Source: an uncultured Candidatus Saccharibacteria bacterium (GTDB lineage Bacteria; Patescibacteriota; WWE3; UBA101185; UBA10185). From it: DNA of 64,000 nucleotides. The stretch is taken from positions 66,252 through 130,251 of the forward strand of contig CAYLMU010000001.1 in assembly GCA_964385105.1 (NCBI GenBank), in the 5' to 3' direction. The position numbers and the translations under genes were made by a program. This document shows positions 1,964-16,431 of the stretch, in pieces. Within the stretch, counting starts at the first letter, position 1. Every line of letters starts with the position of its first letter. The notes beneath the pieces were generated by a model, which ran no database searches, was not told the DNA's origin, and saw only the letters and a list, made by a program, of their open reading frames with translations.

Positions 1964-1985
1964 TTTATTTATTTAGGAGCAAATA

Positions 1986-2366: not shown

Positions 2367-2415
2367 TTTAGGTATACAAATTAGTTTATTAAAGTAAAGG
2401 AGGTGTAATCAAAAA

Positions 2416-2772
2416 ATGTTAAAACTTATAAAACAAGCACATGCCCAAACACAAGGACAAGTACAAACATCTGTTACAGACCCATTAGGAACTAGATTTG
2501 GAAGTGGTACCACATTAGCAAACATATTTGGACTTATAATTAACATAGTTATTGGTGTAGGTGTAGCTTTAACAGTAATATTTTTGATTTTGGCAGGTAT
2601 TCAATATATTACAGCACGAGGTGATACCAAAGCTGCTGATGCTGCAAGGTCGTCATTAACAAATGCTGTAATTGGATTTATTATAGTTCTGGGCGCATTG
2701 ACAATCAGGTTTATTGTACAGAACTTATTAAATGCAGATAACGTAAATATTGAGCAGGTAACAGACTTCTAG
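2416..2772 (+). CDS. VirB2/TrbC-like pilin paralog 2.
   Basis: Strong RBS AAAGGAGG at 2394-2401. About 145 bp (2524-2667) are ~88% identical to 2064-2207, with two perfect 47-50 bp blocks. Confidence 0.6.
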   Translation: MLKLIKQAHAQTQGQVQTSVTDPLGTRFGSGTTLANIFGLIINIVIGVGVALTVIFLILAGIQYITARGDTKAADAARSSLTNAVIGFIIVLGALTIRFIVQNLLNADNVNIEQVTDF

Positions 2773-2804
2773 TAAAGTGCTGCAACGAAAAGAGCGTAAT
2801 TATT

Positions 2805-3125
2805 ATGGATTATATTAACAATTTAAGTAGTAGCCAGGATCCCAGTAGTGGAATGACTGCTTCAACAATGGGAGAATTAATGGGAGTTGTTTTAAACATT
2901 CTCATGGGTTCTGCTATTGCTATAAGCGTCATATCCACTGGGATTGCCGGTATAAAATATATAACAAGCAAAAGCGACCCCAAGGCAAGGGACAGCGCAA
3001 AAAATGCTTTAACGTATGCAGTTATTGCTTCTATTCTCGCCATTGGGGCTTTTGCCGTGAAATTAGCAGTATTAAGTGCTTTCGGAGCCAACGGTGTAAT
3101 TACTAATGGAGTTCCCAATTTTTGA
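2805..3125 (+). CDS. VirB2/TrbC-like pilin paralog 3 (diverged).
   Basis: Same architecture: helix, KSDPKARDSAKNALTYAVI loop, helix. Confidence 0.5.
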   Translation: MDYINNLSSSQDPSSGMTASTMGELMGVVLNILMGSAIAISVISTGIAGIKYITSKSDPKARDSAKNALTYAVIASILAIGAFAVKLAVLSAFGANGVITNGVPNF

Positions 3126-3582
3126 TATACTTAAAAAAAGCTTTATTGCAATTTTATTTGCAACCGTGGTAATCAGTATACAAAACCCGGCTTATGCACA
3201 ATCAGCAGATTGTGTTGGGTATGATCCTAATGACGTAGCATCATTAGCACAAATTGTTTGCCCTGCTGCAAGGTTAGTTAACATTTTATTATACTTTGCT
3301 GGAGCTGTATTTGTTGCAATGATATTTGTAGGTTCTATTAAATATGCAATGTCGCTTGGTGATCCAAAAGGTGCAATAGGTGCAAATCAAACATTAACCT
3401 ACGCTGTAATCGGGCTTATAGCAGTATTGGGAGTATTTTCTATCCTTAATATTATCGCACATCTTTTAGGCCTTACAAATATAGAAAGTTTGAATGTTTT
3501 CAAAACTATTCAAACTAGAATATGTGATTTTCTCATTAGTAATGGTGTCGTAGAGGACGGTGCTAAGATTGCCGGTTGTTAA
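3106..3582 (+). CDS. VirB2/TrbC-like pilin paralog 4, with signal peptide and a longer C-terminal extension.
   Basis: Signal-like N-terminus ending AYAQ; the pilin core is LGDPKGAIGANQTLTYAVIGL flanked by hydrophobic helices. It overlaps the previous gene by 20 nt. Confidence 0.5.
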   Translation: MEFPIFDILKKSFIAILFATVVISIQNPAYAQSADCVGYDPNDVASLAQIVCPAARLVNILLYFAGAVFVAMIFVGSIKYAMSLGDPKGAIGANQTLTYAVIGLIAVLGVFSILNIIAHLLGLTNIESLNVFKTIQTRICDFLISNGVVEDGAKIAGC

Positions 3583-3583
3583 A

Positions 3584-4060
3584 TCAATACGGAACAGGCT
3601 CGTTAGAAATATCTGGGGGCGTGTTGAGATACACATAGTTGATTGTTTCGTTTAGATAATTTCCGTTTACACTTCTTAGAGCAGTTATTTTTAATGTATA
3701 TTCCTGATGATCTTCCCATCCCATGCCTCTTGGAACAAACTTCACTATGTTTGGGTTACTTTCATCGTTTACTATGGAAAATTCCATGTTTGGTTCTATT
3801 GTATATCTAATGGAATTGGATATTATCGGTTCAGAAAATTCAAACCACAAAATTTCATAATCACTCAAAGACTGTGAGCTTCGTTCTGGTGGTGTAATCG
3901 CAATCAAACTTAATTCGGACTCTTTCACAGTATAAGGAGTTTCAATGTCATTATACCTATTAAAATCAATAAAATACGCAATAAATACTAATATTAAGAT
4001 TATAAGCACTATTAAATAGCTTTTGTTGCCTTTAATGAATATGATAAGTTTTTTTGTCAT
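3584..4060 (-). CDS. Bitopic membrane protein: N-terminal TM anchor plus a ~120-aa beta-rich ectodomain. A speculative T4SS assembly factor (VirB8-like role).
   Basis: N-terminal hydrophobic segment YLIVLIILILVFIAYFI. The functional call rests on context only. Confidence 0.4.
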   Translation of the reverse strand: MTKKLIIFIKGNKSYLIVLIILILVFIAYFIDFNRYNDIETPYTVKESELSLIAITPPERSSQSLSDYEILWFEFSEPIISNSIRYTIEPNMEFSIVNDESNPNIVKFVPRGMGWEDHQEYTLKITALRSVNGNYLNETINYVYLNTPPDISNEPVPY

Positions 4061-4093
4061 ACGCTTTATTTTAAAGTATACCCCTTTTACATA

Positions 4094-7000
4094 TTATTTA
4101 CATATGTAATCTTCCGGTCTCGCAGGAATAAAATCACCAGGCCCATTAGGTAGAGCCATTTCGAAGTGAACATGTGTGTTATTTCCCCAATCATATAATT
4201 CAGCTGCAGCATCTCCCGGTTTTTTTTCTCCGGTGTAAACAGTTCCTACATGCAATAAAACTAAGATTACTTGTGGATTTCCACGCACGTCAAGTCCCGT
4301 TACAGTAGTAACATTTCCCACATTGCTTGCCCGGGGAGAGGAGACTTGCCAAGTGGTAATACCAGTCATTTCAGGCAAAAAAATCGTGCCACACCCTAGA
4401 GGATGTACATCTTCAGCATACCCATAATATTCGGATTCAGGTGGTGTATTCAAACACTTATTATTTGGTGCCTCGGTGGCAATAGGACTCTTCGGATATG
4501 GCGAAACATATGCAGGTATCGGAAAGCATTGGCCTAAAGAACCGGGTATAGTACTCCAATAAAGATTTGACCCGTGCCTACTAGCTTGTTCCTCATTATT
4601 AATGTAAGATCTTTGCCAAACAGTATAACCTTCTGCAAAGACACACCCGTTAAGACTCTTAACATCTACACTGTGGAATCCACAACGTCTATATTCGCCA
4701 CCACCTTCACTTCTTATGTCACCACCACCAACACCACCACCAATTCCAGCAATAGGATTCCTTTGGGGAATTGCCGTTGTAAAAGCTCCGCCCAACAATA
4801 ATATTAATAAAATAAGACACCCCACAGGTATCCCAACACCGTAAAGCAACGTTTTTGTCATGTAATCATAAGTTTTATCCCATGATTCAATCAGTTGACT
4901 AAAATCACCTTTGAAAAACGCTTTGAACGTTCCTTGTGCGGTATCCATAGTCTTAATCAACACTACATACATTACTTTTCTTACTATTGGTACTAAAAAT
5001 TCAACCAGCGGAGAAGCCACCCCGGCAGTTGCTCCTTCCGCTATTGAAGCTAACAAACGTGCAGTAACCCGGGAAATACCGTCCACAACTCTGTTTGCCA
5101 CAATGCTTTTAATATTAGAAGCAGAACTAACGAGTCGGCCTGCTCGTGTTGTGGTAAACCAATGCTGAAGGTTATTAAGTTTTTCATTAATCTTTTCAAG
5201 GATACCTACGTATCGACGCGAAGGTTTCAATGCACCCCTGTTGTCGACTTTGGTATAAAAAATTCTTTTAATAAAACCCGCCATAATTCCGGGGTCGGCA
5301 ATATCAGCAGCACTAAAACCAAATTTACCGTGATTTTTTGACATCCAATCTTTGAATTTCTGCAAGTTAAAATAAATGGCATCAAATTCGGCTCTCTTAA
5401 ACGGTAAAGTGCCATATCTAGCCGTTAAACTGGCATATAAGGCGTCTAATCCTGCGGTATCACCAATACTCACTCCAGCATGAAGTAATTCTTCGAATGC
5501 TCTAATATCCAACTTTCCGGTGGATAAAGCACTTCCAATGTCTTCAATGATTTTAAAGTGTGAGCCAGCAGTAACATTTCTTAATGCAAAATTTCTTCCT
5601 CCTGCTTCAAAATTTACGTTAAATTTATGCTCAAGCGGTTTAAGTAAAAGAGATCCTAATCCGCCGGCCGTACTTCCCGTGAGTTTAAATCCCCAAAAAA
5701 ATGCGATTCCATTGTCGTCTGCGTAATCTTTGTTTACAACAAAACCTAACCGATGTACTCGGGTCAAAAATTTATTTGACCAATAGGCAGGTGTTAAAAC
5801 TTCAATCCTGTTTTTAAATCTGGGCCACAAATAGGTACTTAATAAGCGCTTTCCTTCAAAAGCTCGTAAAAGCTCCTCTGCAGCAGCATAATCTCTTTCC
5901 TGCTCCAATCTTCTAAAAATAGTTCTTAGTTTTATAATATTATCTGTACCTGTAAAAGCGTCGTTTTCCTCGTTTCGTATATCACGCTCCATATCTCGTA
6001 AAAGTCTTCTATTAACACTCCTGCTAAAAGGATCCCCACCAGCAAGACCTCCTCTGCCAAATATATTTCCTCTACTGCCCACATTTACTATGCTGTTTCT
6101 TGCTTCCGCTATATTTTTAGTTAGTTCGGCTCTAAGAACCAATGACGGTTGCGCTGTTCCCAATCCATCAACCTTTCTTGCAATATCTGCGACATCGCTA
6201 CCGACAGCAACAAATTTATTTAAATCTTCCAAGTAAACTTTGAATGGGTTTATGACTGAGCGTCCTAATCTACGCTGTATAGCTAAACCTTCTGGTGTGT
6301 TATTAAGTTGTTGTAAGAAAGTTTCTGCCTCTCCAATTTTTGCCCTTATAACATTTAAATCAGCTGTGTTTGGGGCATCTTTTATATTTCCCGTGAGTAA
6401 AAATGTATCAAGTTTTTCTTGGAGCGAAGTTTTTTTACCGCCGCTTACTAAGCCTTCATAATCTACAGCCTTTTGTAAAGATGAAATCTTCTCATGAAGC
6501 TCATTTTTTAGTAAAAACATTTGAGCTTCAGGAGTATACGAGGCAGGCGTGACATTTTTTTCTAAATCAGCTTTAAGAGCCTTTGCTGCCGAAGATATAA
6601 CTGCATCATACTTATTTTCCCGTAGAATAACGTTTCGTGAATTTACTTGAAATGATAATATACTATGTTTTAACTTCCTGTATTCACCAATGTCGGGATG
6701 ATCCAAACTTAAGGGGTTGGCAGCAGCATGTACCGCACCGGCAGCTCCAGATCCGTCTAATCTTTGAGCCAACGAGGTTGTTGCCTCATGTTGCAAAGCA
6801 ACATCAATCTCATCAAACTTTTCCTGAAGCCTGCGAATTGGTCTCAGTCTGGACTTATTTCTTGCAGTCCTGTAGATATCAACATCACTCAATACATTTT
6901 CCCACAACTGCTCCCTATTTAAAGTGTCAAAATCGTCCCAGTCGGCTATTGCTTTAAACCAATCCTTTACTGTTTTTTTAAATTGCTCTCCCGGGTCACT

Positions 7001-7330
7001 TAACCAGTCGTTAGGATTTAAGCTAATTGAAATACCAACGGCACCGGGCAAGTCTTCCATAGCCTCGGGTCCGTACAGTTCTAGGGCTTCCGGACTGACT
7101 TCCTTAGTTGGTTTAATTTGAGCCTTTAGTGAACTTTCAAAATCTTTTTTAATTCTTTCAATAAACCATGCCGGAATATCTGTATCTTTTTCGAATGTAT
7201 TAAAAAATTTGCCAAAATCCAATAAATCCAAATCAGGGTTACCTGTAAAACGCCGGCCTCCTGAAGGTCTTTTATATAAAGGTCTGTCTCCTGGGTAATA
7301 CCCGAGATAAAACGGATTTGAACTTGCCAT
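4094..7330 (-). CDS. Large (1078-aa) protein: a ~800-aa N-terminal domain with no signal peptide, a single TM, a Gly-rich linker, and a C-terminal papain-fold cysteine peptidase (CHAP / NlpC-P60 superfamily) cell-wall hydrolase domain.
   Basis: TM segment VGIPVGCLILLILLLGGAFTTAIP. Candidate catalytic Cys lies in GQCFPIP or LGCGTIF, and the His in the VILVLLHVGTVYTG motif. Gram-positive T4SSs carry CHAP/NlpC hydrolases (PrgK/TcpG/TraG-like). Confidence 0.55.
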   Translation of the reverse strand: MASSNPFYLGYYPGDRPLYKRPSGGRRFTGNPDLDLLDFGKFFNTFEKDTDIPAWFIERIKKDFESSLKAQIKPTKEVSPEALELYGPEAMEDLPGAVGISISLNPNDWLSDPGEQFKKTVKDWFKAIADWDDFDTLNREQLWENVLSDVDIYRTARNKSRLRPIRRLQEKFDEIDVALQHEATTSLAQRLDGSGAAGAVHAAANPLSLDHPDIGEYRKLKHSILSFQVNSRNVILRENKYDAVISSAAKALKADLEKNVTPASYTPEAQMFLLKNELHEKISSLQKAVDYEGLVSGGKKTSLQEKLDTFLLTGNIKDAPNTADLNVIRAKIGEAETFLQQLNNTPEGLAIQRRLGRSVINPFKVYLEDLNKFVAVGSDVADIARKVDGLGTAQPSLVLRAELTKNIAEARNSIVNVGSRGNIFGRGGLAGGDPFSRSVNRRLLRDMERDIRNEENDAFTGTDNIIKLRTIFRRLEQERDYAAAEELLRAFEGKRLLSTYLWPRFKNRIEVLTPAYWSNKFLTRVHRLGFVVNKDYADDNGIAFFWGFKLTGSTAGGLGSLLLKPLEHKFNVNFEAGGRNFALRNVTAGSHFKIIEDIGSALSTGKLDIRAFEELLHAGVSIGDTAGLDALYASLTARYGTLPFKRAEFDAIYFNLQKFKDWMSKNHGKFGFSAADIADPGIMAGFIKRIFYTKVDNRGALKPSRRYVGILEKINEKLNNLQHWFTTTRAGRLVSSASNIKSIVANRVVDGISRVTARLLASIAEGATAGVASPLVEFLVPIVRKVMYVVLIKTMDTAQGTFKAFFKGDFSQLIESWDKTYDYMTKTLLYGVGIPVGCLILLILLLGGAFTTAIPQRNPIAGIGGGVGGGDIRSEGGGEYRRCGFHSVDVKSLNGCVFAEGYTVWQRSYINNEEQASRHGSNLYWSTIPGSLGQCFPIPAYVSPYPKSPIATEAPNNKCLNTPPESEYYGYAEDVHPLGCGTIFLPEMTGITTWQVSSPRASNVGNVTTVTGLDVRGNPQVILVLLHVGTVYTGEKKPGDAAAELYDWGNNTHVHFEMALPNGPGDFIPARPEDYICK

Positions 7331-7393
7331 AGAATAATTCTATAATGAAAGGGCTTTTACTGAAAGAGTAGTCGTGATAAAATTCTTTTAAAC

Positions 7394-8818
7394 ATGCTCG
7401 GTAAAACATTTATCAAAGTCGGAATAACATTTACTTTTTCTTTATTATTAATAATATTGGCAACATCTAAAACTTATGCTCAAGATTCAGTATGTACCCC
7501 AAGTGAGGGTTTATACACAAGAATCGTCCAGGCACTTGATAACCTGGACATTAGAAGAACAACGGTTAACTTTTTAGTCTCGGCTGTGACAGATGTTCCA
7601 CTTCAAGCTGCCGCCAACGGAACACAGGATGACATTTTTCACTGTATGGGTTATATAGCAACTATGAACGCTGGAGGTAATCAGGGAGGAAGCACCGGTG
7701 CTGATGTATTGGCAAAATTGGGTTTATCTACTGATGGCTGTACCCCTGATGAGGATTACTGTGAAGCTTTGTTTAATACTTATGAGGATGTAAGGATACA
7801 ATCCGGAGCCAACCCGGCTTCCGTGGCCTTTTATAATAAACGGGCAAATAGTCGTGTGTCAGGCAGCCTTGTGGGACTTGTAAATATGGCTGAAAATGCT
7901 ACTTATCAGCCGGTTCCAGTGAACCTTGCTTTTTATTTTAACAAAGAAGCACAAAAGTTACCTTTTGTGGGCACAGCGTTTGCACAAACTGCAGGAGACT
8001 TTACAGGGCCGTTTTTAAACTTAACATACGATCTCTGGAAAATATTTAGAGATGTAGCATACGGAGTTATGGCAGTAATCATGATTATAGTGGGCATCAT
8101 GATTATGACAAGAAAAAAGTTGAACCCTCAAACAGCGGTAACTATGCAGTACGCTCTTCCCCGAATAATAATAGCTTTAGTTTTAATAACTTTTAGCTAC
8201 GTAATAGGAGCCACCATTGCTAGTACAGCCTGGGTTCTAAAATTTAGCGCAGATAAAATTATTATACAACTCTTTATAGATTCTCAGGCTCAAAGTACAC
8301 AACACGTAAGCTTCATGTATGCAGCCGGCTTTATGGTGACTTTAGTTATTGGGGTTATTATGATGTTTACAAGCGGTGTGGGAGTAGTGTATGCGGCACT
8401 TTTCATTGTTGGATTTATATTAACTTTAATAACTTTCCTTATCGTATTTCTTAAAATGTTGATGCTGTATTTACGCATGTTAATTAATATAATTGCGGCG
8501 CCTCTAACGTTCACCATGGCAGCGCTCCCCGGTAAAGATGATATGATGATGAACTGGTTTAAACAGATGCTTGTATATACTTTATCAATTTTTGGAATGA
8601 CCGCTGTCATATCAATTACAAGAATTGTAAGTGCTGTTATGCTGTTAAATATAGCGGATAATGGTGGTAACACTATATTTGACGGTGGAAGGGGAGCAGG
8701 AGCTTTCTTAGTCTTTGGCCCGATATTACTTTTCATTATTCTAATATACGGATTGAATACTGCCAGAAAATTACCAAACAAAATCGAAGCCGCCATCATG
8801 GGTCCCAAAAAGCGCTAA
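7394..8818 (+). CDS. VirB6/TrbL-like polytopic membrane protein: signal peptide, a ~200-aa extracytoplasmic domain, and 5-6 TM helices.
   Basis: Signal peptide ending TYAQ, then multiple long hydrophobic helices in the C-terminal half. Assignment rests on T4SS context and topology. Confidence 0.45.
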   Translation: MLGKTFIKVGITFTFSLLLIILATSKTYAQDSVCTPSEGLYTRIVQALDNLDIRRTTVNFLVSAVTDVPLQAAANGTQDDIFHCMGYIATMNAGGNQGGSTGADVLAKLGLSTDGCTPDEDYCEALFNTYEDVRIQSGANPASVAFYNKRANSRVSGSLVGLVNMAENATYQPVPVNLAFYFNKEAQKLPFVGTAFAQTAGDFTGPFLNLTYDLWKIFRDVAYGVMAVIMIIVGIMIMTRKKLNPQTAVTMQYALPRIIIALVLITFSYVIGATIASTAWVLKFSADKIIIQLFIDSQAQSTQHVSFMYAAGFMVTLVIGVIMMFTSGVGVVYAALFIVGFILTLITFLIVFLKMLMLYLRMLINIIAAPLTFTMAALPGKDDMMMNWFKQMLVYTLSIFGMTAVISITRIVSAVMLLNIADNGGNTIFDGGRGAGAFLVFGPILLFIILIYGLNTARKLPNKIEAAIMGPKKR

Positions 8819-8887
8819 ACAAGCATCCGCAGTATAAACACATAACATAATTGCCTAATAAGCAAATACCCCGTAAAATAAGACCAA

Positions 8888-10621
8888 ATGCCCATTAACG
8901 ATGTACAAAAAACCAATAAACAACACGCTGTACCTCAAAACATAATGGATGTTGAATTCAAAATAATAGGGGATCTTACTATGCGGCAGTTTTTTTACCT
9001 TTTGGTTTTTTTTGGATTTGCATATTCTATTTTTACTTTGTATAACGGTTTTCTTAAATGGCCATTAATTTTATTTTTAGTATGTGCAGGGTTGGCATTT
9101 GCCTTTTTGCCAATAGAGGAGAGAAGTCTAGATCAATGGGTTGTTAATTCATTTAGGGCCATTTATAAAGACACACAATACGTATGGCGTAAAACCCCTG
9201 AAATACCTCCGGCATTTTCGTTTGAAAATATGAGTGTTGTTAAACAAGAATTAATTACTTTAACACCTACATCAAGTAGAAGAAAGCTTGAAGAATTTTT
9301 AGAAGCTCAAACAGATAAAACCGTTATCGACCCTTTGGACATTCCGGAAGTTTCTTATATAAAAATGGTTAGACAGGGGTTTAAAAATGCCGCGCCGGTA
9401 ATAGAAGTGGAAGGTGAGGTTGAACCAACATTTCCGGCATATGATGAGTCTGCCAAAAATCAGGCACAATCTTCAGAAGAACCAACACAAAACGTTCCTG
9501 TGCAAGAAGTGCCACTACAAACCCCGTCAACATCTACACCTGCACCTATACAACCGGAACCTGCTAAACAATCCATATCCACTGACACACCAAAACAAGA
9601 TCAGCCACAACAAAAACCCACAAAACCTCCTGAAGAGAAAAAGCACCATCACCCATCAATAAAACTTCCAAAACTTCCTCATGTACCACGTCCGCTATTG
9701 CCAAAACATGTAGATGAACCTATTGAGGTATCAAAAGGGCCATTCCTTGCACCGATTACGCCCGATCAGCACTCAGGCCGAAAATTCACAAGTTTATTAC
9801 CAAAACAAGGGGAAATTATCTTGCCAATCAGAGGAGAAACGGTAATACAAACTACGGAAGAGGCGGAAATTGAAGAAGATATTGAAGAAAAAGCAGAACA
9901 ATTAAGAAAACTTTTATCTCATATACGACAAACCGAAAATATTCCTGAAACCACAAGAATTGAAAGCCAAATTGAAGAGAAATCTATAGACATAAAACCA
10001 GATGAAAAAGAAGCAATACAGCCCGAAGTTCAAGACACACTCGAGCAATTAAAAAGAGACAATGAAAGATTAAAAAAAGAAATTGAACAGTTAAAACGCG
10101 AAATAACCAAACCTCAAACATCAACCGAAAGGTCTGAGAAAATTACAACGTTAAAGCGTCTTGAACACGAACAGCATGAAAAAGAAGAGGCATATTCTTT
10201 GATTAAAAATAAACTTTCAAACATCCAGGAAAAAATATTTGTAAAACGTCAACCTGAATCTGAAAATATAAGTAATGAAAATGACGTACAGGAATGGAGT
10301 ACGCCTTCTAATGCAGTTGAACCTACATATGCTAAAATGAAACCCTTAAACGAAACACCGAATTTATTATCGGGTGTAGTTGTTGACCCGGCAGATAAAA
10401 GACTTGAGGGAATAATTTTAATAGTTAAAAATAACAAAGACGAGCCGGTTAGAGCTTTAAAAACAAATCAAACCGGACAATTTAGCATAAGCACACCGTT
10501 AGCTAATGGAGTTTATACTGTTGAAACAGATAAATCGAAACGAACTAACTATACCTTTGATATAATTAAAATCGTTACAAAAGGAGAGGTAATCCCTCCT
10601 ATAGAAATAAAAGGAAAATAA
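8888..10621 (+). CDS. PrgI/VirB3-like two-TM N-terminal domain fused to a Pro/Gln-rich linker, a coiled coil and a C-terminal beta-sandwich (carboxypeptidase-regulatory-like) domain.
   Basis: The N-terminal motif IIGDLTMRQFFYLLVFFGFAYSI, followed by a second TM, resembles the PrgI family. Also present: a low-complexity PTKPPEEKKHHHPSIKLPKLP region, a coiled coil LEQLKRDNERLKKEIEQLKREI, and a C-terminal GVVVDPADKRLEGIILIV beta domain. Confidence 0.45.
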   Translation: MPINDVQKTNKQHAVPQNIMDVEFKIIGDLTMRQFFYLLVFFGFAYSIFTLYNGFLKWPLILFLVCAGLAFAFLPIEERSLDQWVVNSFRAIYKDTQYVWRKTPEIPPAFSFENMSVVKQELITLTPTSSRRKLEEFLEAQTDKTVIDPLDIPEVSYIKMVRQGFKNAAPVIEVEGEVEPTFPAYDESAKNQAQSSEEPTQNVPVQEVPLQTPSTSTPAPIQPEPAKQSISTDTPKQDQPQQKPTKPPEEKKHHHPSIKLPKLPHVPRPLLPKHVDEPIEVSKGPFLAPITPDQHSGRKFTSLLPKQGEIILPIRGETVIQTTEEAEIEEDIEEKAEQLRKLLSHIRQTENIPETTRIESQIEEKSIDIKPDEKEAIQPEVQDTLEQLKRDNERLKKEIEQLKREITKPQTSTERSEKITTLKRLEHEQHEKEEAYSLIKNKLSNIQEKIFVKRQPESENISNENDVQEWSTPSNAVEPTYAKMKPLNETPNLLSGVVVDPADKRLEGIILIVKNNKDEPVRALKTNQTGQFSISTPLANGVYTVETDKSKRTNYTFDIIKIVTKGEVIPPIEIKGK

Positions 10622-10622
10622 C

Positions 10623-11321
10623 ATGCCCATGATTAAAGCTACTACACAACAACATCTCGATATTGAAGACATTAAAGACAACATGGTTATTTTAAAAAAC
10701 GGGGCTGTTAGTGTAGTTCTTGAAACAACAGCCGTTAACTTTGACCTGTTATCCGAAATTGAACAAGACGCTATGATTGCAGCATTTTCTATGTTGTTAA
10801 ACTCAATATCGTTTCCAATTCAGGTTGTTGTGAGATCAAAAAGACTTGATATAACAAAATATCTTGAAAAAGTGCATAGGGTAGAGCAAAAAATAACCGA
10901 CCCGCTTCTTAAAATCCAGGCTCAATATTACCGCAAATTCGTACAGGAAGTTATTGAAAAAAATGATGTATTAGATAAAAAATTTTATGTGGTTATAAGC
11001 TATGGAGGCTCAGGTACGGTACAAACAGGCAAAAACCCGTTTGACTGGGTTTTGGTTTTGTTTGGTCTGCACAACCGTCGCACAAATGTAGACGTGGAAA
11101 GTGTTTTGCAAAAAGCACGTACAGATTTGGGGCCAAAAATTGACCACGTTTCTGCGGAATTTAACAGACTTGGAGTAAAAACCCGACAATTGAGCACACA
11201 AGAGTTGGTTGAATTATACTTTGATATATACAACCCAACAACGCTACACGGCCAAAGAATAAGAACAAGTGTAAGTGATTATAAAACAGCAATAGTAAAT
11301 CCTGCTATAGTTGAGGAATAA
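10623..11321 (+). CDS. VirB4 N-terminal-domain-like protein (232 aa): either a separate ORF or the split 5' part of VirB4.
   Basis: The motif HLDIEDIKDNMVILKNGAVSVVLETTAVNFDLLSEIEQDAMIAAFSMLLNSISFPIQVVVRS resembles the extreme N-terminus of Gram-positive VirB4 proteins. Its stop lies 2 nt before the next ATG, in the -1 frame. Confidence 0.45.
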   Translation: MPMIKATTQQHLDIEDIKDNMVILKNGAVSVVLETTAVNFDLLSEIEQDAMIAAFSMLLNSISFPIQVVVRSKRLDITKYLEKVHRVEQKITDPLLKIQAQYYRKFVQEVIEKNDVLDKKFYVVISYGGSGTVQTGKNPFDWVLVLFGLHNRRTNVDVESVLQKARTDLGPKIDHVSAEFNRLGVKTRQLSTQELVELYFDIYNPTTLHGQRIRTSVSDYKTAIVNPAIVEE

Positions 11322-11323
11322 AT

Positions 11324-13312
11324 ATGAAAATACCTGCAGTAACTTTATTTAAAAAAAAGCATAAAGAACAACCTGATACTCAAGCACAAGCACAAGTCAC
11401 AGAACCTGCAAATCAAAAAAAGCCTGCTGAAGTTTTGGCTGAAGGAATGATTAACGTAAAAGACATTATTGCGCCGCCGGCAATTGAAGTTGATTTTAAT
11501 TTTTTAAGGATAGGCAATACTTATTACAGAACTTTGTTTGTATCAGGTTATCCAAGGTTTGTGGGCGCCAACTGGTTATCGCCTGTGATTAACTTTGACC
11601 ACTCTCTTGATCTTTCAATGTTTTATTATCCTGTTGAATCAAAAGGAATTCTTGATGACTTAAGAAGAAAAATTACCGAAATGGAAGCTACAAGCATGTC
11701 TAATAGAGAAAAGGGTAAAATTAGCGACCCTACAGTAGAAATTGCATTAGGGGATGCTAAAGCTTTGCAGGAACAATTGGTAAAAGGTGTTGAGAAATTC
11801 TTTCAGTTTTCTTTTTATATCACTATACCCGCCGACTCGCTTGATGAACTTGAAAAAGTAACTAAGAAGCTTGAAGCCACACTCGGCTCACTTTTGTTAA
11901 TTTCAAAAACATCTACATTACAAATGGAAGACGCTTTTCAATCAACAATTCCCGCTGCCATGGATAAAATGCTTATCACAAGAAACATGGATACTACCAG
12001 TTTAGCTACAACATTTCCATTCACATCATCCGACCTTACATCAGACGAAGGAATAATGTACGGAATAAACAGGCACAATGGGTCATTAATTGTTTTTGAC
12101 AGGTTTTCGCTTGAAAATGCAAATAGTGTAGTATTTGCTAAATCCGGTGCCGGTAAATCATACATGATAAAACTTGAAGCATTGCGATTGATGGTATTTG
12201 GAGCAGAGATACTAATTATCGACCCCGAAGAGGAATACAGAGCATTGTGTGATGCTGTAGGGGGTAATTATATTAGCTTCGCAGCAAACTCCCCATCAAA
12301 AATAAATCCTTTTGACCTATCGGGAATTGCAACTGAAGGTGAAAACGAATTGGGTCAAAAACTTTTATCTTTACACACACTATTTAAGCTAATGTTGGGC
12401 GATCTTAATCCAACAGAAGAAGCGTTACTTGACCGTGCTTTAATGGAAACTTACAGAATAAAAGGTATAACAACCGATCCTGATACACAACGTTCAAAAG
12501 AGCCTCCAATTATGGAAGATTTATATAAAGTGCTGTTAGGAGCTGAAGAACCCGAAGCAAGAAGTATGGCTGAAAGACTTGAAAAATACATTAAAGGTTC
12601 GTTAACAGGTATATTTGACAATCAGTCCACAGTTAACCTCGGCAGTAGAATGACGGTATTTTCAACACGTAATCTGGAAGATATATTAAAACCCATTGCC
12701 TACTACATAATTCTTGATTTTGTGTGGACAAGAATTAAAAAGGATTTAAAAAAGCGTATATTAATTGTTGAAGAAGCATGGTCTTTGCTTCAAGACGAGG
12801 ACAGTGCAAGATTTTTATATGGTGTAGCAAAAAGAGCTAGAAAATACTATTTAGGTCTTACAACCATTACCCAGGACGTCCAGGACTTTCTAAGTTCTGA
12901 TTTTGGGAAAGCTATTGTTACAAACTCATCCATACAAATTTTATTAAAACAGCATCCGGCCTCAATTGACCAAATAGCCGAAACATTTTACCTATCTGAA
13001 GGAGAAAGAAGACTTTTACTATCTGCAGATAAAGGTGAAGGATTATTTTTTGCAGGTTCAAATCACGTTTCAGTTAAAGTAAAGGCTTCTGACGCTGAAC
13101 ATAAATTAATAACTACAAACCCGCAGGAAATTCTTGAAATGAGAAATGAACAGATTAATAAAGCTTCTGTTGATTTGCAAAAACCTGTTTACAAACCGTT
13201 TGAGCGCTTTGAGAGTAGCAAATATGATGAAATCGAAACACCACAGCAAAACCCGCAAACAAACAATGAACCAAACACTTTTCCTCAAAATCCCGAAGAA
13301 CAGTTAGCTTAG
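11324..13312 (+). CDS. virB4: VirB4/TraE-family T4SS ATPase.
   Basis: Walker A FAKSGAGKSY, a Walker B / DEAW-like motif ILIVEEAWSLL, and an N-terminal VirB4 signature IAPPAIEVDFNFLRIGNTYYRTLFVSGYPRFVGANWLSP. Confidence 0.75.
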   Translation: MKIPAVTLFKKKHKEQPDTQAQAQVTEPANQKKPAEVLAEGMINVKDIIAPPAIEVDFNFLRIGNTYYRTLFVSGYPRFVGANWLSPVINFDHSLDLSMFYYPVESKGILDDLRRKITEMEATSMSNREKGKISDPTVEIALGDAKALQEQLVKGVEKFFQFSFYITIPADSLDELEKVTKKLEATLGSLLLISKTSTLQMEDAFQSTIPAAMDKMLITRNMDTTSLATTFPFTSSDLTSDEGIMYGINRHNGSLIVFDRFSLENANSVVFAKSGAGKSYMIKLEALRLMVFGAEILIIDPEEEYRALCDAVGGNYISFAANSPSKINPFDLSGIATEGENELGQKLLSLHTLFKLMLGDLNPTEEALLDRALMETYRIKGITTDPDTQRSKEPPIMEDLYKVLLGAEEPEARSMAERLEKYIKGSLTGIFDNQSTVNLGSRMTVFSTRNLEDILKPIAYYIILDFVWTRIKKDLKKRILIVEEAWSLLQDEDSARFLYGVAKRARKYYLGLTTITQDVQDFLSSDFGKAIVTNSSIQILLKQHPASIDQIAETFYLSEGERRLLLSADKGEGLFFAGSNHVSVKVKASDAEHKLITTNPQEILEMRNEQINKASVDLQKPVYKPFERFESSKYDEIETPQQNPQTNNEPNTFPQNPEEQLA

Positions 13313-14433
13313 TTATTAATATGCATGGGAGCCATAACATGCAAGAATACAGTGTTTTCAGCCGGTTTTATTAAACATGGAGTAACATTGTCGTTGGCAT
13401 GAAAAATCAGCTTCTCAAATTTATTGTTTGATAGAAAATCAAGCAAAAATCTAGCGTTAAACATAATTTCCAGCTCCTTTTCCATCTCGCCTAAAACTTC
13501 TGCAGAAAATTCGGTGTGATTTTCACCTGTTTCTTGAGCCGAAGATGTTACCCTTATATAACCCTCAGGGCTAATAATTAATTTTAAAGTATTATTTTCA
13601 TCCTTTTTTGAAAAAACGTGAGTGAGTTTAACAGCCTCAAATAAGTCCTGAGACATAAATGCTGCCTGCACACTTGTTTGGGATGGAATTATACGTTTGT
13701 AATCAGGATACATTCCATCAATAACCCTTGTAGCTATAACCGTATCTTCACATTCAAAAATACACAAATTTTCATTCTCATTAAGATATACTTTTATATT
13801 TTCTCCACAACTGCTAAAAATCCGGGCTGTTTCAAGTAGTGTTTTTGCCGGGAGAATCAACGAGAAACTTTCGGCTTGGGATTCAATATTTAAAATTCGT
13901 TCGCTTAGCCTAAATCCGTCGGAAGCGGCAATATATAAATTACCTTCATTGTAATTTAAGTAAATTCCTGTAAATATAGGCCTTGAACTGTCGTTTGAAA
14001 CGGCAAAGCCAACCTGAGACACAGCTTCTGCAAACTCTTTTGGTGAAATTTCAAATAACGGGTTTGACGTTGTTACTTCAGGCAAAGTAGGGTAATCAAC
14101 CGAATTTATGCCGTTTATTTTAGATTTTGTCTTTCCGGCGGTAATATGCACAATATCGTTTTCCATACTGATTACAACCTGATCGCTTGATAAATTTGAT
14201 ATAAATTCGGAAAGAATCCTTGCAGGTACAGTCACAGAACCTTCTTCTTCAATAGAAGCTCCTACAAATGATGTTATGGTGGTATCAAGGTCGGTACCGG
14301 CAATTTGCAGACGTCCGTCTTTTGAAACTATAAGCACGTTAGACAACACAGGCATCGAGTGCTTAATCGGCACAGCTTTAGATACAATACCGAGACTTTT
14401 AACTAAGTTTTCTTTTAGGCAAGTAAATTTCAT
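13309..14433 (-). CDS. dnaN: DNA polymerase III beta sliding clamp.
   Basis: Colinear similarity to E. coli DnaN along its length (MKFT..., the TDL motif, FPDY-like region). Its stop codon overlaps the virB4 stop. Confidence 0.9.
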   Translation of the reverse strand: MKFTCLKENLVKSLGIVSKAVPIKHSMPVLSNVLIVSKDGRLQIAGTDLDTTITSFVGASIEEEGSVTVPARILSEFISNLSSDQVVISMENDIVHITAGKTKSKINGINSVDYPTLPEVTTSNPLFEISPKEFAEAVSQVGFAVSNDSSRPIFTGIYLNYNEGNLYIAASDGFRLSERILNIESQAESFSLILPAKTLLETARIFSSCGENIKVYLNENENLCIFECEDTVIATRVIDGMYPDYKRIIPSQTSVQAAFMSQDLFEAVKLTHVFSKKDENNTLKLIISPEGYIRVTSSAQETGENHTEFSAEVLGEMEKELEIMFNARFLLDFLSNNKFEKLIFHANDNVTPCLIKPAENTVFLHVMAPMHINN

Positions 14434-14442
14434 AAATATATT

Positions 14443-14895
14443 TTAATCAGTTGGCTTTAAAACTATATGTCTGTCAAAACCCTCGCCGATACTAAAGGTT
14501 TCAATATCATCATAGCCGCTTATAAACTCATGAATGTGTTTTCTCTCATATGCAGTCATTGGAGGTAAATGTACTTCTTCTTTAAAAAAACGTGCTCTGT
14601 CAATATAGCTTTTTGCCATTAATTCAAGCTTTTCTTCTTTTGCATCAACATAATTATTTATATCAACGGTAATATTTTTCCACTCACCAAATTTTCTATG
14701 CACAGCTAAACTTAAAAAATGCTGTAGACCACTTAATGAAGTACCGCGATAACCGATTAAAAAACTTAAGTCATCACCTTTAATGTCAATGTTTATAGCA
14801 TCACCATCCGCACTTACCTCAAATGTAGGCTCAATTTTTAAATGCGAAAAAACTTCTTTTAAGGTGTTTTTTATAAATTCGTTAATTTCCTGCAT
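14443..14895 (-). CDS. khpB: Jag/KhpB RNA-binding protein (KH + R3H domains).
   Basis: R3H-like C-terminus and the conserved position downstream of yidC. Confidence 0.75.
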   Translation of the reverse strand: MQEINEFIKNTLKEVFSHLKIEPTFEVSADGDAINIDIKGDDLSFLIGYRGTSLSGLQHFLSLAVHRKFGEWKNITVDINNYVDAKEEKLELMAKSYIDRARFFKEEVHLPPMTAYERKHIHEFISGYDDIETFSIGEGFDRHIVLKPTD

Positions 14896-15643
14896 TTTGC
14901 TTTTTTGTTCTTTTTCCTAAAACTAAATATGTTTGGGCAAGTGAAAAGACTGTTGTAGTTAAGAAATATAATACAGCCCCTGCCGGCAGTGAAATACTTA
15001 TAATTACAGATATTACTGGCATTACATATAACATCTGCTCCTGCATATTATACGCAATATCATCCGTTTTGTCAGGAGTTTGCTCGGCTATTTTTTCGGC
15101 TTTTTTAGTAAACCCTAATGACATTTTAGAAGTAAAAAACTGAAGTATTCCAACTGACAAAGCCAAAATATAAGGAAACCCTTCCGGTTTGGTAAGATCA
15201 AACCATAAAAATTCCGTATTAATTGTACTTGTGGTGAATTTAACAAAATCAAAGTAAAGTTCATGGTTCAATGACATCATGTCTTCTGTTCTGGAAATTA
15301 TAGATATTGCATTGTACAAAGCATAAATCACAATAAACATGGGTATTTGTGTTAAACATCCTGCAGCAGGATTTAGGCCATGTTCTTTAAAAAGTTCCAT
15401 TTGTGCTTCCGCCTGCTTTTTTTTGTTATTTTTGTATTTTTCTTTGATTTTATCTATTTGAGGTTGTAATTCACGCTGCTTTTTCATTTGCCTCATAGAT
15501 GGTACGAGTGTGGGTATTAGAATTACTCTAACTATAATTGTTAATAAAATAATGGCTATACCTAAATTTCCGGTTAATTGGTATAAACCGGCCAAAGTAT
15601 TTAATATTGGTTCAACTAAAATTGTGTGTAAAAATCCGCTCAT
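14882..15643 (-). CDS. yidC: Membrane protein insertase YidC (short Gram-positive/Oxa1-like form).
   Basis: Multi-TM protein with the conserved YidC core, sitting in the canonical rnpA-yidD-yidC-jag operon. Confidence 0.85.
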   Translation of the reverse strand: MSGFLHTILVEPILNTLAGLYQLTGNLGIAIILLTIIVRVILIPTLVPSMRQMKKQRELQPQIDKIKEKYKNNKKKQAEAQMELFKEHGLNPAAGCLTQIPMFIVIYALYNAISIISRTEDMMSLNHELYFDFVKFTTSTINTEFLWFDLTKPEGFPYILALSVGILQFFTSKMSLGFTKKAEKIAEQTPDKTDDIAYNMQEQMLYVMPVISVIISISLPAGAVLYFLTTTVFSLAQTYLVLGKRTKKQNAGN

Positions 15644-15645
15644 AA

Positions 15646-15861
15646 TTATTTAACAGGGTCGTAACCGCCCTTACTAAAGGGGTTGCATCTTATAACTCTC
15701 CAAACACCCATTAAACCACCTTTAAAAATACCATATTTTTCTACAGCTTCATAAGTGTAGCGAGAACAGCTTGGCTCAAAACGGCATAATTTAATTCCGT
15801 ATCTACCTGGAGAAAGGTAAGTTTTGTAAAACCTTAGTAAAGTCAGAATTAAGCTCTTCAT
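15646..15861 (-). CDS. yidD: Membrane protein insertion efficiency factor YidD.
   Basis: YLSPGRYGIKLCRFEPSCSRYTYEAVEKYG matches the YidD signature. Confidence 0.85.
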   Translation of the reverse strand: MKSLILTLLRFYKTYLSPGRYGIKLCRFEPSCSRYTYEAVEKYGIFKGGLMGVWRVIRCNPFSKGGYDPVK

Positions 15862-16162
15862 AACTTTTTCCTAAAACTTTATACTTTGGATACAATACTA
15901 TCCAATAACCATTTTCTATTTTATCAAGATTATTTCTTATTATTTCTCTAAACAATCTTTTTATTCTGTTTCTTTTAGCCGAAGATTTATGTATACGATT
16001 TGAAACTACAATACCAAATTTAGACGGACCCTCATAATTATAGGGCTTTATATAATTTATAAAAAAAAGGTCTCCGGAAGACGAGGTTTTATGTTTTTCA
16101 GATAAATACTTAACTTTTCTGAACTCATAATTTGACCTCAAGCGATTATCACTGGGTAACAT
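15803..16162 (-). CDS. rnpA: RNase P protein component.
   Basis: Basic ~119-aa protein between rpmH and yidD; the operon position is conserved. Confidence 0.8.
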   Translation of the reverse strand: MLPSDNRLRSNYEFRKVKYLSEKHKTSSSGDLFFINYIKPYNYEGPSKFGIVVSNRIHKSSAKRNRIKRLFREIIRNNLDKIENGYWIVLYPKYKVLGKSYEELNSDFTKVLQNLPFSR

Positions 16163-16171
16163 GCTATAAAG

Positions 16172-16324
16172 TTACTTCTTTTTTAGAAGAACAACAAGTT
16201 TTTTTCTACCTTTTGCACGTCGATTTTTAAGAACACGTTTTCCGCCGGGCGAGGCCATGCGTTTTAAAAATCCGTGTTTTTTTACTCTTTTTCTTTTTTT
16301 TGGTTGCCAAGTTCTTTTAGGCAT
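16172..16324 (-). CDS. rpmH: 50S ribosomal protein L34. True start is the internal ATG; the track ORF is 14 codons too long.
   Basis: [45 protein letters not shown] is a canonical L34 sequence. Confidence 0.9.
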
Positions 16325-16402
16325 AACAACAGGCATATTAAAGCAATTAAGGTAATTAGTCAACAAAAGAAAGCGTAGTTCTAACCATAATTGCTTTATT
16401 TA

Positions 16403-16411
16403 TGTGGATAA
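16403..16411. promoter_or_regulatory. Perfect DnaA box (TGTGGATAA) in the rpmH-dnaA intergenic region, overlapping the spurious upstream ATG of the dnaA ORF.
   Basis: Exact 9-mer match to the reverse-complement DnaA box consensus. Confidence 0.6.
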
Positions 16412-16431
16412 CATTTATAGACTTATACACA

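What the first reader, a model, noticed from the sequence alone, without database searches (positions are those of the whole stretch)
8888..10621. PrgI/VirB3-like membrane anchor fused to a cell-wall-spanning linker and beta-sandwich domain
The N-terminal ~90 aa match the PrgI-family motif (GDLTMRQFFYLL plus a second TM). They are followed by ~350 aa of Pro/Gln-rich low-complexity sequence and coiled coil, then a C-terminal carboxypeptidase-regulatory-like beta domain. Such a fusion could stand in for the missing VirB9/VirB10-like periplasm- or wall-spanning components.
Basis: partly seen in the sequence, partly recalled or inferred. Interest (0 to 1): 0.55.

Follow-up and report, generated by a model that had tools for sequence, protein, structure and literature searches.

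The report
VirB3/PrgI anchor with cytoplasmic tail module

Summary
ORF 8888-10621 (+) encodes an intact 577-aa protein. It has a PrgI/VirB3 hit above Pfam's threshold (aa 15-91), a two-helix membrane hairpin, a Pro/Glu/Lys/Gln-rich disordered spacer, a coiled coil and a C-terminal CnaB/transthyretin-like beta-sandwich.

It is not a frameshift artefact. More than 750 protein clusters from WWE3 and Microgenomatia share PrgI plus the beta-sandwich. The order PrgI-fusion, TrsD, VirB4, then dnaN is kept in about 75 of 82 loci.

The "wall-spanning VirB9/VirB10 stand-in" reading is not supported:
- There are only two TM helices, so the tail lies on the same side as the ultra-conserved N-tail. In VirB3 that side is the cytoplasm, where VirB3 wraps the VirB4 N-domain.
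- In a sister lineage the same module is a separate 859-1035-aa gene between a short prgI and trsD/virB4, with no TM segment or signal peptide.
- Microgenomatia forms have linkers of only about 35-90 aa.
- The module evolves as slowly as dnaN, whereas the components predicted to be extracytoplasmic (VirB6-like, 1078-aa protein) are far more divergent.

Best reading: a cytoplasmic accessory of the TrsD/VirB4 complex. Its exact role (clamp or substrate adaptor) is inferred, not shown. The system itself is published; the module is not described in the papers I could search. This is a new variant of a known kind, of moderate interest.

The parts
8888..8986 (+). N-tail (aa 1-33), motif HAVPQNIMDVEFKIIGDLTMR. 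It is the most conserved segment of the protein and the presumed contact with TrsD/VirB4.
   Evidence: Median 77% identity across 82 loci. Many invariant columns in A1. Part of the PF12666 match.
8987..9115 (+). Two-helix transmembrane hairpin (aa 34-52 and 59-76) with a 6-residue loop carrying one conserved K/R.
   Evidence: The hydropathy scan finds no TM-like segment in the tail; the only late hits lie in the beta-sandwich. AF2 helices 32-51 and 57-73 have pLDDT >95.
8930..9160 (+). PrgI family (PF12666) match, aa 15-91.
   Evidence: E=5.7e-10, 40 bits against a 27-bit cut-off.
9116..9397 (+). Conserved helical juxtamembrane region (aa 77-170), including ERxLDxW and TLxPTSSRRKLEE.
   Evidence: Median 53% identity. 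AF2 helices 80-97, 115-125, 129-142 and 154-166. Retained in the short 198-199-aa PrgI genes of the split lineage.
9398..9751 (+). Disordered Pro/Glu/Lys/Gln-rich spacer (aa 171-288), variable in length and sequence.
   Evidence: Composition. pLDDT <50. Detectable in only 17 of 82 loci, at about 30% identity. The linker is about 35-90 aa in Microgenomatia forms and far longer in the largest fused forms (890-1074 aa in total).
9752..9937 (+). Conserved linear motif PITPDxHSGRKF..LLP..GE.ILPIRGE plus an amphipathic helix (aa 289-350).
   Evidence: Invariant G297, R298, L312, P313, L339, L342. Median 58% identity. The motif has low pLDDT while helix 323-349 is confident. A degenerate G-x-V-x-[LI]-S-I-R-G-E motif is kept in most of the stand-alone proteins.
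9938..10312 (+). E/K-rich helical or coiled-coil segment (aa 351-475).
   Evidence: AF2 helices 378-407 and 412-453, pLDDT 88-94. Weak HALZ and SMC-type matches. About 28% identity across relatives. Absent from short Microgenomatia forms.
10313..10621 (+). C-terminal beta-sandwich (aa 476-577) with signature PVRALKTNxxGQF, plus the stop codon.
   Evidence: PF13620 at 27 bits. AF2 pLDDT 91.9, pTM 0.82. Foldseek CnaB/transthyretin-like hits. Invariant N492, G496, K514, R522, K525, G530, F532, Y543.
10623..11321 (+). TrsD/TraC-like protein (homologue of the VirB4 N-terminal domain). It starts 1 nt after the stop codon of the PrgI gene.
   Evidence: NCBIfam TrsD at 1e-6 and VirB4_plasma N-region at 5e-11. 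Follows the PrgI gene in 76 of 82 loci.
11324..13312 (+). VirB4 ATPase (CD1110 family).
   Evidence: NCBIfam NF045971, 377 bits against a 325-bit cut-off. Pfam P-loop_TraG at 7e-32.
7394..8818 (+). Polytopic membrane protein in the VirB6/PrgH position, immediately upstream.
   Evidence: An N-terminal hydrophobic segment plus 5-6 TM stretches. No HMM hit. Upstream neighbour in 22 loci. The prgH-prgI-prgJ order is known from pCF10 (PMC12857230).
995..3582 (+). Array of five VirB2-like T4SS pilin paralogues.
   Evidence: PF18895 hits: three above the 26.6-bit cut-off, one just below at 25.8 bits, and one weak at 17.4 bits.

Best explanation
The gene encodes the VirB3/PrgI subunit of the chromosomal, origin-adjacent type IV secretion system typical of Patescibacteria.

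Shown:
- The N-tail, two-helix hairpin and juxtamembrane helices are a PrgI family domain.
- The gene sits in the canonical place: VirB6-like, PrgI, TrsD (VirB4 N-domain homologue), VirB4.
- The 400-aa tail is a conserved evolutionary fusion. Its universal element is a CnaB/transthyretin-like beta-sandwich with the signature PVRALKTNxxGQF.
- In WWE3 the sandwich is preceded by a length-variable disordered spacer, a near-invariant PIRGE motif and a coiled coil.

Inferred with good support:
- The whole tail is cytoplasmic. A two-TM hairpin puts it on the side of the N-tail, which in VirB3 binds the cytoplasmic VirB4 N-domain.
- Where the same module is a separate gene, it has no export signal.

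Inferred with weak support:
- Six copies of the tail hang beside the TrsD/VirB4 hexamer.
- The coiled coil pairs or bundles neighbouring copies.
- The PIRGE motif and the basic conserved face of the beta-sandwich dock on a conserved cytoplasmic partner. The partner is most likely the TrsD/VirB4 ATPase itself (a clamp or stator) or a substrate (an adaptor).
- In this way the tail would cover part of the role of the cytoplasmic components VirB11, VirD4 and the VirB8 tails. I found no homologue of these in the genes I scanned in this locus (995-15643) or in the ten ORFs I scanned between 16.4 and 34.5 kb.
For: Identity:
- PF12666 above threshold.
- TrsD and VirB4 lie immediately downstream, with gaps of 1-2 nt.
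- This order plus dnaN, khpB and yidC is kept in 74-76 of 82 loci.
- dnaA is at 16402-17835, matching the published Patescibacteria T4SS (PMC12102498).

Real fusion:
- 340 or more clusters and 415 or more clusters carry PF12666 plus PF13620.
- 110 species representatives encode a relative.

Topology:
- Only two hydrophobic helices are present in all 75 aligned members.
- K+R counts are 2.0 and 2.0-4.8 in the flanks against 1.0 in the loop.
- VirB3 wraps the VirB4 N-domain, and both VirB3 ends are described as cytoplasmic.

Split genes:
- P0228 and P0231-P0235 (859-1035 aa, 33-51% identical to each other) carry the coiled coil and beta-sandwich (133 bits to the module profile). Most also carry the degenerate RGE motif.
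- They have no PrgI domain and no hydrophobic stretch: maximum 19-residue hydropathy is 1.36 or less, against 2.32 for the window's TM.
- At most 2-4 codons are open upstream of their ATG.
- They lie between a 198-199-aa prgI and trsD/virB4, with GGAGG..TAATG junctions and no Ns.

Short forms: linkers of 35-90 aa in Microgenomatia.

Evolutionary rate:
- Motif 58% and C-domain 48% identity, similar to dnaN at 47%.
- VirB6-like is 30% identical and found in only 22 loci.
- The 1078-aa neighbour is 23% identical.
- Pilins are detectable in only 10 loci.
Against: - No experiment or dedicated topology predictor was available. The charge bias is modest, and the flanks are net acidic while the loop is net +1.
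- The closest solved folds are mostly extracellular Gram-positive pilin and adhesin domains. Cytoplasmic examples also score: 4v4c_B, HIU hydrolases.
- A Pro-rich spacer plus coiled coil plus beta domain does resemble TonB and VirB10.
- A signal-less stand-alone protein could in principle be exported by the T4SS itself.
- No partner was identified. AF2 gives low confidence for the motif, and no multimer prediction could be run.
Confidence: 0.7

Rival explanations
1. The hairpin is inverted (N-out, C-out). The Pro-rich spacer and coiled coil cross the peptidoglycan, and the beta-sandwich sits at or beyond the wall. It would act as a VirB9/VirB10-like envelope-spanning scaffold or adhesin for the pilus.
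For: - CnaB-type fold with best matches to wall-anchored pilins and adhesins.
- A Pro-rich spacer of variable length.
- The loop has a conserved K/R followed by a hydrophobic helix, like a signal anchor.
- No VirB8, VirB9 or VirB10 homologue was seen in the locus.
Against: - It requires an inverted VirB3 topology and export of the most conserved, K/R-containing N-tail.
- It contradicts the VirB3 structure and topology.
- The stand-alone homologues have no signal peptide or TM segment.
- The short 273-345-aa forms have linkers of only 35-90 aa.
- The module is conserved like cytoplasmic proteins, unlike the VirB6-like protein and the 1078-aa neighbour in the same loci.
Confidence: 0.12
2. The tail, or the free-standing protein in the split lineage, is itself a cargo or tip component. 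It would be threaded unfolded from the cytoplasm through the T4SS channel and fold outside, so it would need no Sec signal.
For: - The stand-alone proteins have no signal yet carry a fold typical of surface proteins.
- A long disordered spacer would be compatible with threading.
- The substrates of the Patescibacteria T4SS are unknown (PMC10633639).
Against: - In the window the module is covalently joined to a membrane hairpin, and no cleavage site is evident.
- The short-linker forms could not reach through a channel.
- High conservation is atypical for exposed or secreted proteins of these episymbionts.
- There is no precedent for this in T4SS.
Confidence: 0.06
3. The ORF is an artefact: a sequencing frameshift or misassembly has joined a short prgI to a separate downstream gene.
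For: In one lineage the two parts really are separate genes. Some database entries are split by scaffold gaps.
Against: - The window ORF is uninterrupted.
- The fused form occurs in more than 100 species with divergent spacers.
- An identical protein is on a 468-kb contig in two sources.
Confidence: 0.01

Closest known systems
PrgI (pCF10) / TrwM-VirB3 (R388) / TrsC (pGO1): the VirB3 family, Pfam PF12666
   Same: N-terminal motif ending in LTxRQ before TM1. A two-TM hairpin. A helix after TM2. The gene lies between the VirB6-like gene and VirB4, and here it is followed by a TrsD homologue, the component that marks the pGO1 subclass. Expected 1:1 binding to the VirB4 N-domain.
   Different: Canonical members are 10-15 kDa with short cytoplasmic ends (PMC12857230). 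This protein is 577 aa, with a roughly 400-aa conserved tail beyond the juxtamembrane region.
PrgI family protein SEML1_0010 of Ca. Southlakia epibionticum (Saccharibacteria)
   Same: The same Patescibacteria T4SS. The gene is next to TrsD-like and VirB4 genes. It is also longer than canonical VirB3 (300 aa) and is essential for epibiotic growth (Wang 2023 supplementary tables).
   Different: The table lists only helical matches after the PrgI domain and no beta-sandwich.
Natural VirB3-VirB4 fusions (for example CagE and Campylobacter plasmids)
   Same: The C-terminus of VirB3 is used as the attachment point for a cytoplasmic domain, which shows that this end faces the cytoplasm.
   Different: The fused partner there is the ATPase. 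Here VirB4 and TrsD stay separate and the partner is a spacer, coiled coil and beta-sandwich module. The Patescibacteria survey found no VirB3-VirB4 fusions.
VirB10 / TonB
   Same: A similar linear layout: membrane anchor, Pro-rich region, helical segment, C-terminal beta domain.
   Different: VirB10 and TonB have one TM helix with the C-terminus outside, and a different C-terminal fold. Here there are two TM helices, no TrbI or TonB HMM signal, and signal-less stand-alone homologues.
CnaB / transthyretin-like (CarboxypepD_reg, PF13620) domains
   Same: A seven-strand beta-sandwich. Foldseek gives E of about 1e-4 and TM-score of about 0.65-0.7 to CnaB2, the EbpB and BcpA pilin domains and the carboxypeptidase D TTL domain.
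   Different: Sequence identity is 14-24%. The protein's own signature, PVRALKTNxxGQF, is distinct. The predicted location is cytoplasmic, and isopeptide-forming residues were not examined.
Membrane-anchored stator or clamp subunits of hexameric ATPases (F-ATPase b subunit, FliH/SctL). Functional analogy only, from general knowledge.
   Same: A membrane or basal-body anchor plus a coiled coil plus a terminal domain that holds a hexameric ATPase.
   Different: No homology. The analogy was not tested here.

Membership tests
PrgI / VirB3 family (PF12666) | Profile match above the curated cut-off | tested here: met
   40 bits against 27, E=5.7e-10, aa 15-91.
PrgI / VirB3 family (PF12666) | Two transmembrane helices forming a hairpin | tested here: met
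   Hydropathy across 75 members. AF2 helices 32-51 and 57-73, pLDDT >95.
PrgI / VirB3 family (PF12666) | Gene adjacent to virB4, downstream of a VirB6-like gene | tested here: met
   The order is VirB6-like, PrgI, TrsD, VirB4. It is kept in 74-76 of 82 loci.
PrgI / VirB3 family (PF12666) | Small size (10-15 kDa) with short cytoplasmic ends | tested here: not met
   577 aa, with a roughly 400-aa tail beyond the juxtamembrane region. This is a size difference, not loss of the domain.
PrgI / VirB3 family (PF12666) | Both termini cytoplasmic, with binding to the VirB4 N-domain | not testable with these tools
   Supported indirectly by charge bias, signal-less split homologues and the literature. 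No multimer prediction or experiment was possible.
CarboxypepD_reg (PF13620) / CnaB-transthyretin-like fold | Profile match above the curated cut-off | tested here: inconclusive
   The window protein scores 27 bits against 32.3. The homologues P0210 and P0212 score 38.1 and 34.2 bits.
CarboxypepD_reg (PF13620) / CnaB-transthyretin-like fold | Seven-strand beta-sandwich of this topology | tested here: met
   AF2 pLDDT 91.9. Foldseek probability 1.0 and TM of about 0.65-0.70 to CnaB2, pilin and TTL domains.
VirB10 / TrbI (and TonB-like envelope spanners) | Single N-terminal TM helix with the C-terminal part outside the membrane | tested here: not met
   Two TM helices. Stand-alone homologues have no TM segment or signal peptide.
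VirB10 / TrbI (and TonB-like envelope spanners) | C-terminal TrbI/VirB10 beta-barrel domain | tested here: not met
   No such hit at E<=1 in Pfam or at E<=0.1 in NCBIfam. The fold search returns CnaB/TTL instead.
VirB8 / PrgL | NTF2-like extracytoplasmic domain after a single TM helix | tested here: not met
   No HMM hit. The AF2 model shows no NTF2-like domain.
Patescibacteria-clade T4SS (Quinonero-Coronel 2025) | VirB4 with TrsD, PrgI/VirB3, VirB6 and a VirB2-like pilin array, with no relaxase nearby, often next to the replication origin | tested here: met
   for the window, with the published description. No relaxase or T4CP hit appeared among the 24 window ORFs scanned.

The most novel reading that the evidence does not exclude
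The module (beta-sandwich, with or without the PIRGE motif and coiled coil) is fused to VirB3 in WWE3 and Microgenomatia and free-standing in a sister lineage. It could be a previously unrecognised core cytoplasmic subunit of the Patescibacteria T4SS. It would do the job of the coupling protein and VirB11, which were not found in this locus, by docking substrates or clamping the TrsD/VirB4 ATPase. That would give a concrete handle on how this essential, relaxase-less T4SS selects what it moves.
Probability: 0.3. Interest if true: 0.65.

Novelty: new variant of a known kind. Interest (0 to 1): 0.45.

Why it matters
The Patescibacteria T4SS is essential for epibiotic growth in the one system tested. 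It lacks recognisable coupling and relaxase proteins, and what it transports is unknown (PMC10633639, PMC12102498).

This work points to a conserved cytoplasmic module attached to its VirB3 subunit. The module is widespread: more than 750 clusters across two classes. It is confirmed as a functional partner by gene fusion and fission. It is a specific, testable candidate for ATPase regulation or substrate recruitment.

The work also corrects a tempting misreading. The module resembles TonB/VirB10 and surface pilin domains, yet the evidence places it inside the cell.

Tried and rejected
1. Frameshift or misassembly of the window ORF. Rejected: the ORF is intact and the architecture is conserved.
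2. VirB9, VirB10, TonB or VirB8 membership. No HMM or fold support.
3. Apparent split genes P0229 (L086) and P0208 (L087). The splits coincide with runs of N and are scaffold-gap artefacts. P0214 (L088) and P0223 (L089) are contig-end fragments. P0221 (L085) is ambiguous, because the second frame is open upstream on a 2-kb contig. None of these was used as evidence.
4. Fold search with the full-length model, hoping to match VirB3 structures. It returned only the beta-sandwich hits.
5. Pfam at relaxed thresholds on the VirB6-like protein and the 1078-aa neighbour. Nothing was found, and the M23-like 'HVHFE' string seen by eye is unsupported.
6. Literature search for the PF12666 plus PF13620 architecture or a PrgI extension. 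Nothing was found. The 2026 CPR pilus preprint concerns an unrelated Pam pilus.
7. Cluster look-up for source names of P0001, P0233 and P0234. No names are recorded.
Full report
**1. What is there**

The window holds an uninterrupted ORF at 8888-10621 on the + strand, 577 aa long. Pfam places a PrgI family domain at aa 15-91 (40 bits, cut-off 27). It places a sub-threshold CarboxypepD_reg match at aa 494-557 (27 bits, cut-off 32.3).

An alignment of 75 homologues (A1) and an AlphaFold2 model built on it divide the protein into seven parts:
- A nearly invariant N-tail (aa 1-33).
- A two-helix membrane hairpin (aa 34-52 and 59-76, pLDDT >95).
- A conserved helical juxtamembrane region (aa 77-170).
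- A disordered spacer (aa 171-288) with P 19%, E 11%, K 9% and Q 9%.
- A near-invariant motif, PITPDxHSGRKF..LLP..GE.ILPIRGE, followed by a helix (aa 289-350).
- E/K-rich long helices (aa 351-475).
- A beta-sandwich (aa 476-577).

Modelled alone, the sandwich reaches pLDDT 91.9. It matches CnaB2, Gram-positive pilin and adhesin domains, the transthyretin-like domain of carboxypeptidase D and HIU hydrolases.

One refinement is needed: the middle is not uniform low complexity but contains two conserved blocks.

**2. Context**

- Upstream lie five VirB2-like pilin genes (PF18895; three above the cut-off, two below).
- Next come two unannotatable genes on the minus strand and a polytopic membrane protein in the VirB6 position.
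- Downstream, separated by 1-2 nt, are a TrsD/TraC-like protein (a homologue of the VirB4 N-domain) and a CD1110-type VirB4.
- After these come dnaN, khpB and yidC on the minus strand, a 119-aa ORF in the rnpA position, and dnaA.

This is the Patescibacteria-clade T4SS described by Quinonero-Coronel et al. 2025 (PMC12102498). The same system is essential in Ca. Southlakia epibionticum (PMC10633639). The order PrgI-fusion, TrsD, VirB4, then dnaN is kept in 74-76 of 82 fetched loci.

**3. The fusion is real and common**

- 340 or more 90%-identity clusters, mostly WWE3, share the full architecture.
- 110 GTDB species representatives encode a relative.
- A search seeded with a Microgenomatia member finds a further 415 or more clusters. 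Most carry PF12666 plus PF13620, and they include Gottesmanbacteria and Shapirobacteria.
- A profile of the C-terminal module finds 214 50%-identity representatives at E<=1e-30.
- Distant members (27-37% identity) keep the layout.
- The short Microgenomatia forms (273-345 aa) have no coiled coil or PIRGE motif. Only 35-90 aa separate the juxtamembrane region from the sandwich.

The universal elements are therefore PrgI plus the beta-sandwich with its PVRAL(K/R)TNxxGQF signature. The long spacer and coiled coil are a WWE3-type elaboration. The frameshift artefact named as a refuter is excluded.

**4. Where is the tail?**

This decides the interpretation. Four lines of evidence agree on the cytoplasm.

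(a) Number of TM helices.
- All members have exactly two TM helices joined by a 6-residue loop, with no further hydrophobic segment. N- and C-terminal parts are therefore on the same side of the membrane.
- VirB3 proteins have both ends in the cytoplasm and wrap the cytoplasmic VirB4 N-domain. Natural VirB3-VirB4 fusions exist (PMC9259494, PMC12624023, PMC12857230).
- The N-tail here is the most conserved part of the protein, at 77% median identity. That is similar to TrsD (67%) and VirB4 (72%), as expected for a contact with these proteins.
- K+R counts favour the flanks (2.0 and 2.0-4.8) over the loop (1.0). This bias is only modest.

(b) Gene fission.
- In a sister lineage the module is a separate gene. 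P0228 and P0231-P0235 (859-1035 aa, 33-51% identical to each other) carry the coiled coil and the beta-sandwich (133 bits to the module profile). Most also carry a degenerate G-x-V-x-[LI]-S-I-R-G-E motif.
- They have no PrgI domain.
- In L083/L084, L091 and L090 this gene follows a short prgI and precedes trsD and virB4. The prgI is 198-199 aa in L083/L084 and L091; in L090 it is cut off by the contig end.
- The junctions are GGAGG..TAATG (a 1-nt overlap) or a 9-nt spacer, and contain no Ns.
- L083 and L091 are divergent genomes: their PrgI proteins are 64% identical.
- These proteins have no hydrophobic stretch. The maximum 19-residue hydropathy is 1.36 or less, and it lies inside the sandwich.
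- At most 2-4 codons are open upstream of the ATG, so no signal peptide is hidden.
- A soluble, signal-less protein is cytoplasmic by default.

(c) Linker length. The 35-90-aa linkers of the short forms cannot span a wall.

(d) Evolutionary rate.
- The motif (58%) and the sandwich (48%) evolve like dnaN (47%).
- The VirB6-like protein is 30% identical and found in only 22 loci.
- The 1078-aa neighbour is 23% identical.
- The pilins are detectable in only 10 loci.

Against this stands mainly the fold, whose best solved relatives are extracellular, although cytoplasmic examples also score (4v4c_B, HIU hydrolases). The TonB/VirB10-like layout also points the other way. I put the cytoplasmic location at about 0.8 and the wall-spanning model at about 0.12.

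**5. How it probably works**

Shown: it is the VirB3-type anchor of the TrsD/VirB4 ATPase module of this T4SS.

Inferred:
- One tail per VirB3 (six per machine in R388) hangs into the cytoplasm.
- The coiled coil associates neighbouring tails.
- The PIRGE motif is disordered in the monomer model yet nearly invariant, which is typical of a docking motif.
- This motif and the conserved basic face of the sandwich (K514, R522, K525, N527) bind a conserved cytoplasmic partner.

The candidates are the TrsD/VirB4 barrel (a clamp or stator role) or substrates (an adaptor role). Either is plausible. I found no VirB11, VirD4 or VirB8 homologue in the locus. The published surveys report that coupling proteins and relaxases are mostly absent from these systems. 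The short-linker forms argue that the partner sits close to the membrane. None of this could be tested without multimer prediction or experiments.

**6. Comparison with what is known**

- Membership in the PrgI/VirB3 family is met on profile, hairpin and gene position. It fails only on size.
- It is not a VirB10, TonB, VirB9 or VirB8 relative.
- The S. epibionticum PrgI is also extended, at 300 aa with a helical tail. Elongated VirB3 may therefore be general in Patescibacteria, but homology of the tails was not tested.
- The papers I could search do not mention the tail or the PF12666 plus PF13620 architecture. Automatic annotation already labels such proteins 'PrgI family' or 'carboxypeptidase regulatory-like domain-containing'.

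**7. Verdict**

This is a new variant of a known kind, namely a VirB3 subunit carrying a conserved, probably cytoplasmic module that exists fused or free.

Interest is moderate (0.45). The system is known and the function of the module is inferred. Even so, the fusion and fission evidence nominates a new conserved T4SS component in an essential and poorly understood machine.

Noticed in passing
L083:5402-9108, L091:4405-7955, L090:1-3258: In a sister Patescibacteria lineage the tail module is a separate 984-1035-aa gene. It lies between a short prgI (198-199 aa in L083 and L091; cut off by the contig end in L090) and trsD/virB4, with SD-plus-TAATG coupling in L083 and L091. These proteins also share a conserved central block (..DWR.ALNNL.NSH..ALKYLK.K.DWLE..) that is absent from the window protein.
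   Followed up: partly
window 4094-7330 (-): A 1078-aa protein with no Pfam or NCBIfam hit. It has no N-terminal hydrophobic segment, two hydrophobic stretches at aa 774-857, and a Cys-rich C-terminus with an 'HVHFE' string. By eye this resembles the HxH motif of M23 peptidases, but no HMM supports it. Proteins of about 1000-1170 aa lie on the opposite strand in the same place in L083 and L091, and homologues are found in 13 loci.
   Followed up: partly
window 7394-8818 (+): The gene in the VirB6/PrgH position has an N-terminal signal-like segment, a hydrophilic region of about 190 aa and 5-6 TM stretches, but no HMM hit at E<=5. It is only about 30% identical in 22 of 82 related loci. In other loci, such as L001, a polysaccharide-synthesis gene sits upstream of prgI instead.
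   Followed up: partly
window 995-3582 (+): Five tandem VirB2-like pilin paralogues (PF18895). The first is 322 aa, with the pilin domain only at its C-terminus (aa 249-313), so it has a long N-terminal extension. Such arrays are described for Patescibacteria in PMC12102498.
   Followed up: no
window 10623-13312 (+): VirB4 is encoded in two pieces: a TrsD/TraC-like N-domain homologue (232 aa) and a 662-aa ATPase with a low-complexity acidic and polar C-terminal tail. VirB4 length varies in relatives (604-845 aa in L090, L083 and L001).
   Followed up: no
window 13309-20179: The T4SS operon abuts dnaN, khpB, yidC, a 119-aa ORF in the rnpA position, and dnaA, which is the replication-origin region. 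MurT/GatD (peptidoglycan amidation) follow at 18258-20179, consistent with a monoderm wall.
   Followed up: no
L003-L082 record titles: Many GTDB representative assemblies carrying this WWE3-type protein are titled 'uncultured Candidatus Saccharibacteria', and one (L080) is titled 'uncultured Gammaproteobacteria'. These are probably labelling problems in the records, not true taxonomic spread.
   Followed up: no
L078:6974-8545: One fused homologue (523 aa) lacks the conserved juxtamembrane TSSRRKLEE block and the PIRGE motif. It goes straight from the hairpin into a roughly 330-aa K/E-rich coiled coil before the beta-sandwich. The middle of the tail is therefore replaceable while the two ends are not.
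   Followed up: no
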